NCBI RefSeq assembly: GCF_011045215.1
Contig: NZ_CP049203.1
From: Escherichia coli
Lineage (GTDB): Bacteria; Pseudomonadota; Gammaproteobacteria; Enterobacterales; Enterobacteriaceae
Length of the DNA stretch: 4,727 nt
Strand: one strand, 5' to 3'
Shown in pieces: positions 2,316 through 2,498 of the stretch. The position numbers and the translations under genes were made by a program. The notes under the pieces were generated by a model. It was not told the DNA's origin. It worked only from the letters and a program-made list of their open reading frames with translations, and searched no databases. Positions within the stretch are counted from its first letter, which is position 1. The number at the start of each line of letters is the position of its first letter.

Positions 2316-2391
2316 CCAGGCATTTTGTAGCACTGCCGCATCGGTGGCGGTGCTACAAAACATATCCTGTCCCGTCGATGGGGCAGGATAT
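2316..2391 (+). other. IncI1 (R64)-type oriT-like unit A with predicted nic between 2369 and 2370
   Basis: The inverted repeat ttttgtagcac (2323-2333) / gtgctacaaaa (2350-2360) is followed by CATATCCTG/TCCCG. This matches the MOBP nick consensus YATCCTG/Y and my recollection of R64 (..GGTATTACAATTGCACATCCTG/TCCCG). The nick core also sits in a second hairpin (2362-2373 with 2380-2391). Confidence 0.6.
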
Positions 2392-2438
2392 CACGTCCGT
2401 TAGTTTTCATCGTCCGGGGTGCAGGGGTGGCACTCCTG

Positions 2439-2498
2439 CCAGGCGTTTTGCTGAACGGCCATCACCGATGGCGGTTCAACAAAACATATCCTGTCCCG
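2439..2498 (+). other. IncI1 (R64)-type oriT-like unit B with predicted nic between 2493 and 2494
   Basis: The inverted repeat gttttgctgaac (2445-2456) / gttcaacaaaac (2474-2485) has one mismatch and an inner stem gccatc/gatggc. After 8 nt comes ATATCCTG/TCCCG. The flanks ccaggc...aaaacatatcctgtcccg are identical to unit A, 124 bp upstream. Confidence 0.6.

What the first reader, a model, noticed from the sequence alone, without database searches (positions are those of the whole stretch)
2316..2498. Two tandem R64/IncI-type oriT-like units, 124 bp apart, with compensatory changes in their inverted repeats
Seen: both units share identical flanks (ccaggc ... aaaacatATCCTG/TCCCG). The distal half of the hairpin differs between them yet still pairs: unit A has tagcac/gtgcta, unit B has ctgaac/gttcaa. 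The inner stems differ as well (gccgc/gtggc against gccatc/gatggc). Covariation that preserves pairing argues for selection on the hairpin. Identical nick cores argue for a single relaxase type. Established: in R64 the nick lies 8 nt from a 17-bp inverted repeat whose proximal arm binds NikA. My recollection of R64 is GGTATTACAATTGCACATCCTG/TCCCG, against GGTGCTACAAAACATATCCTG/TCCCG here. Inference: this is a duplicated oriT with diverged accessory-protein recognition arms. That could broaden the set of helpers (I1, B/O, K, Z-type), or allow initiation at one nick and termination at the other.
Basis: partly seen in the sequence, partly recalled or inferred. Interest (0 to 1): 0.7.

Follow-up and report, generated by a model that had tools for sequence, protein, structure and literature searches.

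The report
Two helper-specific transfer origins in tandem
A 4.7-kb gene-poor plasmid that cannot transfer itself carries two adjacent, differently "addressed" DNA transfer start sites (plus a third of another type), so it can probably hitch a ride on several kinds of self-transmissible plasmids; this is a new twist on a known strategy, not a new kind of system.

Summary
Two oriT units sit at 2298-2374 (A) and 2421-2498 (B). Their nick cores are an identical 20-mer, and the predicted nicks are 124 nt apart. Each unit has a short and a long inverted repeat, as in R64/ColIb-P9 oriT. They are not a recent duplication: A and B are 72% identical, and each is about 81-83% identical to a native oriT beside mobA/traI(MOBP) genes of MPF_I conjugative plasmids, but only 54-59% identical to R64. 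The nick-proximal arm differs by a triplet, GCT in A and TCA in B. In native plasmids that triplet co-varies with the beta-strand of the NikA-like RHH accessory protein: GCT with ALL(P/G)S(I/V), TCA with (E/V)L(L/F)LGI. Two E. coli helper variants with 98.7% identical relaxases show the switch. The window is a complete ColE1-type circle without a relaxase or nikA/mobA gene, and it also holds a full F-type oriT. The A-X-B tandem recurs in 4 database plasmids and 14 metagenome contigs. A-only and B-only alleles exist in the same backbone, and homology breakpoints fall at the predicted nicks. Best reading: a stacked, dual-specificity oriT on an oriT-only hitcher plasmid. Function is inferred, not shown. 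This is a new variant of a known kind.

The parts
2298..2316 (+). Unit A, short inverted repeat GTCGAGGC-TGT-GCCCTGAC. It is the counterpart of the 8-bp repeat of R64 oriT. The window copy has one extra mismatch at A2302.
   Evidence: Read directly. Aligned with ColIb-P9 and native oriTs. Helix 1 is paired in 93% of cells.
2323..2360 (+). Unit A, long inverted repeat. Distal arm 2323-2339, loop 2340-2343, proximal arm 2344-2360 (GTGGCGGTGCTACAAAA). The specificity triplet GCT is at 2352-2354.
   Evidence: I2; 17-pair stem. The 32 nt TGGCGGTGCTAC...TCCCGTC are identical to the native oriT of E. coli E10 p2.
2362..2374 (+). Unit A nick region ATATCCTG|TCCCG. The predicted nick lies between 2369 and 2370. 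Transfer would proceed rightwards on the + strand.
   Evidence: Identical to R64/ColIb-P9 over ATCCTGTCCCG. Homology in L160/L170 begins at CCTG|TCCCGTC. Invariant in 14 distinct tandems.
2375..2420 (+). Spacer X. Its 5' part (2377-2391, GATGGGGCAGGATAT) is an inverted copy of nick region A. From about 2393 onwards it is the native upstream flank of a B-type oriT, as seen alone in L151/L176.
   Evidence: (I4).
2421..2439 (+). Unit B, short inverted repeat GCAGGGGT-GGC-ACTCCTGC. Complementarity is kept by three two-sided changes relative to the canonical repeat.
2445..2485 (+). Unit B, long inverted repeat. Arms 2445-2463 and 2467-2485. Proximal arm GATGGCGGTTCAACAAAAC, with the specificity triplet TCA at 2476-2478.
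   Evidence: I1. The proximal arm plus nick is identical to the native oriTs of E. coli 52-73 kb MOBP/MPF_I plasmids.
2486..2498 (+). Unit B nick region ATATCCTG|TCCCG. The predicted nick lies between 2493 and 2494, 8 nt from the end of the arm, as in R64.
   Evidence: In L152/L189/L192 homology ends exactly after ATCCTG.
1340..1690 (+). Context: a third, F-type oriT on the same strand. It has an array of TraM-site-like palindromes at 1356-1600, the inverted repeat GCAAAAC/GTTTTGC at 1654-1670, and the nick core CAGGTGT|GGTG (predicted nick 1679|1680).
   Evidence: It is homologous to the traM-to-nick interval of IncF plasmid CP098957.

Best explanation
Positions 2298-2498 hold two complete origins of conjugative transfer of the R64/MobA-TraI(P) architecture. 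They lie head to tail on the same strand. The host replicon is a 4,727-bp ColE1-type plasmid that encodes no relaxase and no NikA/MobA accessory protein.

Each unit offers the same nick core to the relaxase but a different nick-proximal arm. Unit A has GGTGCTAC and unit B has GGTTCAAC. Inferred mechanism: a co-resident MOBP/MPF_I conjugative plasmid supplies, in trans, a ribbon-helix-helix MobA/NikA-like protein. Its beta-strand reads the arm and recruits the relaxase, which cuts ATCCTG|T 8 nt away. The strand is then transferred rightwards from the nick. Helpers with an ALL(P/G)S(I/V)-type MobA should fire unit A. Helpers with an (E/V)L(L/F)LGI-type MobA should fire unit B.

Stacking the two units, together with the F-type oriT at about 1340-1690, widens the range of helpers the plasmid can exploit.

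Because both nicks are on one strand, a transfer started at B may terminate at A, which would delete the 124 nt between the nicks and leave an A-only plasmid. A transfer started at A may abort at B. The arrangement is therefore expected to be metastable.

What is shown: sequence homology, architecture, recurrence of the tandem, the correlation between arm triplet and accessory protein, and breakpoints at the nicks. What is inferred: nicking, helper specificity and termination behaviour.
For: 1. Native context. The nearest relatives of each unit lie immediately upstream of mobA-traI operons of MPF_I conjugative plasmids, in the same orientation as oriT-nikA-nikB in R64/ColIb-P9.

2. Exact matches to native sites. 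B's proximal arm plus nick is identical to that of E. coli plasmids CP057913, CP057041 and CP057042. A's 32 nt TGGCGGTGCTAC...TCCCGTC are identical to E. coli E10 p2.

3. Arm triplet and accessory beta-strand co-vary.
   - GCT goes with T/S-ALL(P/G)S(I/V)-RC in Y. ruckeri, two Serratia, Rahnella, a Klebsiella-type backbone (L144), E. coli E10, Salmonella and Pectobacterium.
   - TCA goes with ELLLGIRC (E. coli) and VLFLGIRW (Edwardsiella).
   - AAT goes with ATLPPV, CAT with ERLPCI, and R64 with VVRTLRF.
   - The variable residues align with the N-terminal RHH domain of NikA, PDB 2BA3.

4. A switch within one helper lineage. L004 (TCA) and L201 (GCT) have 98.7% identical relaxases but 91.9% identical MobA. 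Their nucleotide differences are elevated at the hairpin (9 in 60) and the 5' end of mobA (8 + 8 in 120), against mostly 0-3 per 60 in traI; the mobC side downstream of the nick is also diverged.

5. No mobilisation genes. The window is a closed circle (L190 joins 4727 to 1). tblastn finds no relaxase or NikA/MobA homologue. ORF searches find only Rop and a lysozyme-domain protein.

6. Recurrence. The A-X-B tandem, with 123/124-nt spacing, occurs in 4 PLSDB plasmids (one on a Col156 Rep-type replicon) and in 14 of the 61 loci returned by the metagenome scan.

7. Co-residence. Strain RHB39-C22 carries a tandem plasmid (CP057044) and two B-type helpers (CP057041, CP057042).

8. Breakpoints at the nicks. 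They are seen after ATCCTG of B (L152/L189/L192) and at CCTG|TCCCGTC of A (L160/L170). A-only alleles have the junction predicted for B-initiation and A-termination (L017, L014, L156, L172, L194).

9. Experimental precedent. pEC156 is a ColE1-type plasmid without mob or nikA genes. It is mobilised through its R64-type oriT by R64 and through its F-type oriT by F (PMC4743918). The R64 core needed for transfer is the nick region plus repeat A (same paper, citing Furuya & Komano 1997).
Against: - No experiment shows nicking or mobilisation for either unit or for any of the proposed helpers.
- Among 14 distinct tandems, unit A is no better conserved than the spacer: 15 of 77 variable columns against 12 of 78, with the distal arm at 7 of 21. 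Unit B has 5 of 78. A could therefore be less used, or decaying outside its core.
- A's downstream flank (TCCCGTCGATGG) lacks the TTTG motif found after the nick in all native members.
- Only one E. coli helper with the A-type arm was found. It comes from a search in which 23 of 5,426 complete genomes held any family member. Its traI is annotated as truncated.
- In S. aureus, same-strand oriT pairs are removed by relaxase-mediated deletion (PMC4652767). A stable same-strand pair is therefore unexpected unless cross-termination is inefficient.
- The co-variation table rests on about 16 native loci, and the lineages are not all independent.
Confidence: 0.7

Rival explanations
1. Only one unit, most likely B, is a working oriT. 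The other is a passenger scar left by relaxase-mediated or illegitimate recombination between plasmids, and is kept because it is nearly neutral.
For: Unit B varies less than its surroundings, and unit A does not. Co-resident helpers in the sequenced strains are B-type. A's downstream flank is non-native, and the junction carries an odd palindrome. The oriT region is clearly recombinogenic: breakpoints fall at the nicks and the adjacent cargo slot is variable.
Against: A's proximal arm and nick core, which are the part sufficient for initiation in R64, are intact and identical to a native oriT. They are nearly invariant in 14 distinct tandems. The same A-type core is the sole oriT-like element found here on the fetched small plasmids L199/L200, and the same 34-nt core matches dozens more small plasmids of Salmonella, Citrobacter, Enterobacter, Klebsiella and E. 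coli. The tandem persists across diverged backbones and two replicon types.
Confidence: 0.2
2. Division of labour. One unit serves mainly as the initiation site and the other mainly as a termination or recircularisation site for the same helper, which improves the fidelity of transfer.
For: Both units have the two hairpins that, by my recollection of Furuya & Komano 2000, are needed for R64 termination (that paper was not retrievable; its title appears). The nick cores are identical, so one relaxase could act at both.
Against: With the order A then B on the transferred strand, B-initiation followed by A-termination deletes B. A-initiation followed by B-termination transfers only 124 nt. Neither outcome preserves the plasmid. 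Single-unit alleles are common and evidently viable.
Confidence: 0.07
3. The complementary changes in the arms reflect concerted evolution of a palindrome, through template switching or gene conversion between arms, rather than selection for a hairpin or for symmetric protein binding.
For: In several native oriTs (Serratia L207, Rahnella L047, Y. ruckeri L015) the distal arm does not match the proximal GCT triplet. Pairing at those positions is therefore not obligatory.
Against: Two separate helices both show two-sided changes. This includes three in B's short repeat, which is not adjacent to the long one. The same triplet switch is compensated on both arms in two lineage pairs, L004/L201 and L204/L206.
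Confidence: 0.15
4. The repeats are not transfer origins at all, but some other element such as replication iterons, Xer sites or an assembly artefact.
For: None found.
Against: Homology to sites beside relaxase operons in many conjugative plasmids, and to the experimentally defined R64/ColIb-P9 oriT. cer (about 1100-1350) and the ColE1 origin (about 3300-3960) lie elsewhere in the window; this is my reading of the sequence, with Rop confirmed. The tandem is present in closed plasmid records and in many independent assemblies.
Confidence: 0.01

Closest known systems
oriT of IncI1 plasmids R64 / ColIb-P9 (NikA-NikB relaxosome)
   Same: The nick core ATCCTG|TCCCG is identical. A long inverted repeat has its proximal arm ending 8 nt 5' of the nick. 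A second short repeat (GTCGGGGC..GCCCTGAC) lies upstream. The accessory gene sits on the repeat side and the leading region on the nick side.
   Different: Identity across the oriT is only 54-59%. The arms, GGTGCTACAAAAC and GGTTCAACAAAAC, differ from the NikA site GGTATTACAATTGC. The native relatives use 642-670-aa TraI/MobA(P) relaxases that are 32-35% identical to NikB. Here there are two units and no nikA or nikB.
Native oriTs of MOBP/MPF_I plasmids with mobA-traI: E. coli 52-73 kb plasmids typed IncI1 or IncI-gamma/K1 (e.g. CP057913, NC_017643, E10 p2), and relatives in Klebsiella, Yersinia, Serratia, Pectobacterium and Edwardsiella
   Same: Identity is 80-83%. The proximal arm plus nick is identical for each unit, and both inverted repeats are shared.
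   Different: Native plasmids carry one oriT with its cognate mobA. The window carries two specificity classes side by side and has no mobA.
pEC156 / pKPN2 / pSe-Kan-type ColE1 plasmids with an F-type and an R64-type oriT and no mob genes
   Same: ColE1 replicon with cer and rop. No relaxase. An F-type oriT lies next to an R64-family oriT. Mobilisation by both helpers has been demonstrated for pEC156 (PMC4743918).
   Different: pEC156 has one R64-type unit that is 83.9% identical to R64. Here the R64-family part is a tandem of two diverged units matched to non-I1 helpers.
pCERC7 / NTP16 / pU302S group (Moran & Hall 2017) and pBuzz (Moran & Hall 2019)
   Same: Small plasmids that borrowed an I-complex-type oriT. 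pBuzz carries two oriTs.
   Different: The pCERC7 group encodes its own NikA, and the window does not. The two oriTs of pBuzz are inversely oriented; these are direct and 124 nt apart.
pWBG749-family oriT mimics of Staphylococcus aureus with the RHH specificity factor SmpO (O'Brien et al. 2015, PMC4652767)
   Same: The oriT subfamilies differ in a repeat read by an RHH accessory protein. Non-conjugative plasmids stack oriTs of different subfamilies. Relaxase-mediated recombination occurs between same-strand oriTs.
   Different: The relaxase family and the hosts are unrelated. In S. aureus, pairs of oriTs are invariably on opposite strands, whereas here they are on the same strand and adjacent.

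Membership tests
R64-type oriT (IncI1, NikAB) | Nick region YATCCTG|Y, identical or nearly so to R64 | tested here: met
   ATATCCTG|TCCCG in both units, against CACATCCTG|TCCCG in R64/ColIb-P9.
R64-type oriT (IncI1, NikAB) | Long (17-bp class) inverted repeat whose proximal arm ends 8 nt 5' of the nick | tested here: met
   In B the arm ends at 2485 and the nick is at 2493|2494, which is 8 nt. In A the stem ends at 2360/2361, which is 8-9 nt.
R64-type oriT (IncI1, NikAB) | Second short (8-bp) inverted repeat upstream | tested here: met
   2298-2316 in A and 2421-2439 in B. Helix 1 is paired in 93% of cells.
R64-type oriT (IncI1, NikAB) | Proximal arm equals the NikA(R64) binding sequence | tested here: not met
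   GGTGCTACAAAAC and GGTTCAACAAAAC, against GGTATTACAATTGC.
R64-type oriT (IncI1, NikAB) | Sequence similarity at the level used to define oriT families (over 80% identity and 70-80% coverage; Ares-Arroyo et al.) | tested here: not met
   59% (A) and 54% (B) identity to ColIb-P9 over about 83 aligned positions.
R64-type oriT (IncI1, NikAB) | Nicked by NikAB and mobilised by R64 or I-complex helpers | not testable with these tools
   Requires mating assays.
oriT of mobA-traI(MOBP)/MPF_I plasmids (E. coli B-type and E10-type lineage and relatives) | Proximal arm and nick core identical to a native oriT located directly upstream of mobA-traI | tested here: met
   B matches L004/L012/L013. A matches L201 over 32 nt.
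oriT of mobA-traI(MOBP)/MPF_I plasmids (E. coli B-type and E10-type lineage and relatives) | Arm triplet corresponds to a MobA beta-strand class | tested here: met
   GCT with ALL(P/G)S(I/V), and TCA with (E/V)L(L/F)LGI, across the native loci examined. Binding itself was not tested.
oriT-only (relaxase-in-trans) ColE1-type hitcher plasmids | ColE1-type replicon, with no relaxase or accessory gene on the replicon | tested here: met
   Rop hit at 3.5e-31. RNAII/ori homology to ColE1-like plasmids. Closed circle. No tblastn hit to four relaxases or four accessory proteins.
pCERC7-type NikA-encoding small plasmids | Encodes a NikA homologue next to the oriT | tested here: not met
   No NikA/MobA homologue. 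The ORF in the equivalent position (1981-2226, minus strand) has no Pfam or NCBIfam hit and only 9 hypothetical homologues.
F-type oriT (context element at about 1340-1690) | Homology to the traM-to-nick interval of an IncF plasmid, with the nick core GGTGT|GGTG | tested here: met
   92.6% identity over window 1600-1680 (query 1-81) to CP098957, between traM and the SLT gene. The palindrome array is shared. Function was not tested.

The most novel reading that the evidence does not exclude
MOBP/MPF_I conjugative plasmids of Enterobacterales are diversifying a compact specificity module: the MobA beta-strand together with a 3-bp arm triplet. At least five classes exist, and the GCT/TCA switch is seen in two separate lineage pairs. 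This could be a way to shed oriT-only parasites. ColE1-type hitchers would then answer by stacking oriTs of two classes on the same strand, 124 nt apart. The persistence of this same-strand pair across many backbones would mean that termination, and not only initiation, is gated by arm and accessory specificity. That would differ from the structure-only view of termination.
Probability: 0.25. Interest if true: 0.7.

Novelty: new variant of a known kind. Interest (0 to 1): 0.5.

Why it matters
MOB-suite typing labels these plasmids "non-mobilizable". In fact they carry up to three transfer origins and probably move with several helper families, so mobility predictions for small Enterobacterales plasmids are underestimates.

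The correlation between arm triplet and MobA beta-strand gives a simple, testable recognition code for NikA-like RHH accessory proteins. It could allow helper-hitcher pairs to be predicted from sequence.

The natural same-strand tandem, together with its single-unit derivatives, is a ready-made system for asking whether conjugative termination discriminates between oriT specificities.

Tried and rejected
The scan was wasted. The 20-mer scan of metagenomes replaced it.

2. I tested whether the 81-aa ORF at 1981-2226(-), which sits where nikA/mobA sits in helper plasmids, is an accessory protein.
   - It has no Pfam or NCBIfam hit.
   - tblastn with NikA and MobA proteins finds no similarity.
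   - It has only 9 hypothetical homologues.
   - Relatives carry a FinO/ProQ-like gene in that slot instead.
   - I rejected it as evidence for a self-encoded accessory protein. Its fold was not examined.

3. I considered that the inverted nick-like copy at 2380-2391 (minus strand, ATATCCTGCCCC) marks a third, inversely oriented oriT, as in pBuzz. I rejected this because no accessory-type arm or inverted repeat precedes it on that strand.

4. I tried to show purifying selection on each unit from variability among the tandems. The test is underpowered: B appears constrained and A does not, beyond its core.

5. The promoter and terminator scan of 1950-2650 gave nothing above chance.

6. The Furuya & Komano 2000 and 2003 papers on R64 termination and tandem-oriT recombination could not be retrieved. 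Statements about them rest on their titles in reference lists and on my memory.

7. I could not determine the direction of evolution between the tandem and the single-unit alleles.
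Full report

The window carries two oriT-like units on the + strand. They share an identical 20-mer, ACAAAACATATCCTGTCCCG, at 2355-2374 and 2479-2498. That is 2 matches against 0.01 expected by chance. 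The spacing is 124 nt.

Each 20-mer is preceded by a long imperfect inverted repeat. In A the arms are 2323-2339 and 2344-2360. In B they are 2445-2463 and 2467-2485.

- In A it is GTCGAGGC/GCCCTGAC at 2298-2316.
- In B it is GCAGGGGT/ACTCCTGC at 2421-2439.

B's copy stays complementary through three two-sided substitutions. As single-stranded DNA each unit folds into two hairpins, with z = -3.7 for A and -4.2 for B.

**Relation to R64**

The reverse complement of ColIb-P9 39620-39710, and the identical region of R64, reads GGGGTGTCGGGGCGAAGCCCTGACCAG-ATGGCAATTGTAATAGCGTC-GCGTGT-GACGGTATTACAATTGC-ACATCCTG|TCCCG. The architecture is the same as in both window units: a short repeat, a long repeat, 8 nt, then the nick core.

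Identity is nonetheless only 59% for A and 54% for B, and the arms differ from the NikA site.

**Closer relatives**

BLAST of the region finds 546 plasmid records, 371 of them typed conjugative. In every native record fetched the match lies directly upstream of a mobA-traI operon of MOBP/MPF_I plasmids:
- E. coli plasmids of 52-73 kb with IncI1 or IncI-gamma/K1 replicons.
- Plasmids of Klebsiella, Yersinia ruckeri and Serratia.
- Plasmids of Pectobacterium, Pantoea, Edwardsiella and Salmonella.

Their relaxases are 642-670 aa. They match NCBIfam TraI_MobP_relax and are 32-35% identical to NikB. The accessory proteins match NCBIfam MobA, are about 40-48% identical to NikA, and align to the NikA RHH domain 2BA3.

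The pCTX-M3 review states that IncM oriT likewise has two inverted-repeat pairs and a nick similar to that of IncI1 (PMC8125031). "R64-type" is therefore right for the architecture and wrong for the likely helpers.

**Two lineages, not a duplication**

A and B are 72% identical to each other, and each is about 81-83% identical to different native oriTs.
- B's proximal arm and nick (GATGGCGGTTCAACAAAACATATCCTGTCCCG) are identical to those of the E. coli helpers CP057913, CP057041 and CP057042.
- A's TGGCGGTGCTACAAAACATATCCTGTCCCGTC is identical to E. coli E10 plasmid p2.
- A's GGCGGTGCTAC...TCCCGT is also shared with the Y. ruckeri and Serratia plasmids.

**What the arm difference means**

Pairing each native oriT with its own MobA gives the following table.

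| Arm triplet | MobA beta-strand residues | Where seen |
|---|---|---|
| GCT | T/S-ALL(P/G)S(I/V)-RC | Y. ruckeri, two Serratia, Rahnella, a Klebsiella-type backbone (L144), E. coli E10, Salmonella, Pectobacterium |
| TCA | ELLLGIRC | E. coli |
| TCA | VLFLGIRW | Edwardsiella |
| AAT | ATLPPVRC | Klebsiella |
| CAT | ERLPCIRC | L165 |
| ATT... (R64) | VVRTLRF | R64 |

These residues align with the N-terminal RHH domain of NikA. That they form its DNA-reading beta-strand is my knowledge of RHH proteins.

Two comparisons are especially telling:
- The E. coli plasmids L004 (TCA) and L201 (GCT) have 98.7% identical relaxases but 91.9% identical MobA. Their nucleotide differences are elevated at the hairpin and the 5' end of mobA; the mobC side downstream of the nick is also diverged.
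- L144 has a relaxase 95% identical to that of the AAT-type Klebsiella plasmid, but a MobA only 87% identical, and it carries the GCT arm.

The triplet is therefore very likely the accessory-protein address. Unit A and unit B would answer to different MobA classes. This is a correlation; binding was not tested.

**Covariation of the repeats**

On 26 aligned family members the two helices are paired in 86.3% of cells, against 36-56% when partners are slid. Ten pairs have two-sided changes, affecting 46 cells against 4-12 in the slid controls. None of 500 shuffles reaches the covariation score.

Compensation is not universal. In several Yersiniaceae native oriTs the distal arm does not match GCT. 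Concerted evolution of palindromes is a possible non-selective contributor.

**The replicon**

L190 joins window position 4727 to position 1, so the window is a complete 4,727-bp circle. It contains:
- a ColE1-type origin and Rop, and a cer site at about 1100-1350 that I recognised by eye;
- a lysozyme-domain ORF with a LexA-box-like sequence (read by eye) and a probable immunity gene.

It has no relaxase or NikA/MobA homologue.

It also holds a full F-type oriT at about 1340-1690 on the same strand. A palindrome array and the nick core CAGGTGT|GGTG are homologous to the traM-to-nick interval of an IncF plasmid.

This places the plasmid with pEC156, pKPN2 and pSe-Kan. pEC156 is a mob-less ColE1 plasmid with F-type and R64-type oriTs that was shown to be mobilised by both F and R64 (PMC4743918). 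MOB-suite types the close relatives as non-mobilizable.

**Recurrence and allelic states**

The A-X-B tandem, with 123/124-nt spacing, occurs in 4 PLSDB plasmids, one of them on a Col156 Rep-type replicon. It also occurs in 14 of the 61 loci returned by the metagenome scan. L158 and L190 are the same plasmid as the window.

The same backbone also exists in other states:
- A-only: L017, L014, L156, L172, L194.
- B-only with the canonical upstream flank: L002, L140, L143, L161, L163, L168, L187, L196, L197. L143 carries the same bacteriocin cargo as the window.
- B-only with the X-type upstream flank: L151, L176.

The A-only junction (...ATCCTG|TCCCGCCTTTG) is exactly what initiation at nick B followed by termination at nick A would produce.

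Homology breakpoints coincide with the predicted nicks:
- L152, L189 and L192 diverge right after ATCCTG of B.
- L160 and L170 become homologous at CCTG|TCCCGTC of A.
- The F-type homology ends at its nick.

These are the scars expected of relaxase activity at these sites. The direction of evolution between the states cannot be determined from the sequences.

**Mechanistic consequences**

In R64/ColIb-P9 the leading region (ardA, psiB, ssb) lies on the nick side and nikAB on the repeat side. Transfer in the window would therefore run rightwards from each nick. A start at B meets A last, so the risk is deletion of B. A start at A meets B after 124 nt, so the risk is abortive transfer.

O'Brien et al. 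found that S. aureus plasmids with two oriTs always carry them on opposite strands, and showed relaxase-mediated deletion between same-strand oriTs (PMC4652767). Two R64 papers by Furuya and Komano address recombination between tandem oriTs. I could see only their titles.

The natural persistence of this same-strand pair therefore points to one of two things. Either cross-termination between specificity classes is inefficient, or selection keeps restoring the tandem.

Among 14 distinct tandems, unit B has 5 of 78 variable columns, the spacer and downstream flank 12 of 78, and unit A 15 of 77. Both nick regions are invariant. B appears to be the more constrained unit, which fits the B-type helpers found with a tandem plasmid in strain RHB39-C22.

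**Verdict**

This is a real, recurrent, dual-specificity tandem oriT on an oriT-only ColE1 hitcher that also bears an F-type oriT. The general strategies are already known: oriT mimicry, multiple oriTs, RHH-determined specificity and relaxase-mediated recombination. New here are the same-strand tandem of two MobA specificity classes and the readable correspondence between arm triplet and beta-strand in this MOBP family. In the literature I could search I found no description of either. All functional statements remain inferences.

Noticed in passing
window 1340-1690 (+): A complete F-type oriT. Five or more GCACCGT..ACGGTGC palindromes lie at 1356-1600, resembling TraM-binding arrays. The inverted repeat GCAAAAC/GTTTTGC is at 1654-1670, and the nick core CAGGTGT|GGTG is at about 1679|1680. 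The region is homologous to the traM-to-nick interval of IncF plasmid CP098957, and the homology stops at the nick. The 4.7-kb circle therefore has three same-strand oriTs and no mob gene.
   Followed up: partly
window 59-898 (-) and 4204-4683 (-): A 279-aa ORF with a Phage_lysozyme domain (Pfam 1.6e-9) and a His/Gly/Ser-rich N-terminus. It is preceded by a LexA-box-like CTGTGTTTATATACAG at about 852-867. It looks like an SOS-induced lysozyme-type (pesticin-like) bacteriocin. The 159-aa ORF with no family hit is a candidate immunity protein. The same pair, at 99-100% identity, is on L143, L158 and L190.
   Followed up: no
window 1963-2284 (ORF 1981-2226, minus strand): The slot just upstream of unit A, where nikA/mobA sits in helper plasmids, is a variable cargo site. 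Here it holds a very basic 81-aa ORF with only 9 hypothetical homologues. L001, L011, L143 and L151 hold a 124-aa FinO/ProQ-family gene there instead. L017 has almost nothing there.
   Followed up: partly
window 2362-2391: The nick region of unit A is one arm of a near-perfect palindrome, ATATCCTGTCCCGTC/GATGGGGCAGGATAT (13 pairs, DNA fold z = -4.3). It is conserved in most tandems. It would bury nick A in a hairpin on single-stranded DNA. Its origin and role are unexplained; a snap-back or strand-switch event during a relaxase-mediated join is one possibility.
   Followed up: partly
L152, L189, L192 (unit B) and L160, L170 (unit A): Sequence homology to the tandem stops or starts exactly at the predicted nick positions (ATCCTG| and |TCCCGTC). 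This suggests natural relaxase-mediated joining to unrelated DNA. In L160/L170 the partner end is a pseudo-nick, ...TTTCCTG.
   Followed up: partly
L004 vs L201; L204 vs L206: Pairs of related helper plasmids differ by the same GCT/TCA switch on both arms together with a switch in the MobA beta-strand (ALLPSV/ELLLGI and ALLGSV/VLFLGI). In the E. coli pair, divergence is elevated at the hairpin and the 5' end of mobA, though the mobC side downstream of the nick is also diverged.
   Followed up: partly
L002, L010, L014 (IncF plasmids of 72-119 kb): ColE1-like segments carrying these oriT units are integrated in large IncF plasmids. Those plasmids thereby acquire an extra MOBP-type oriT besides their own F-type oriT.
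   Followed up: no
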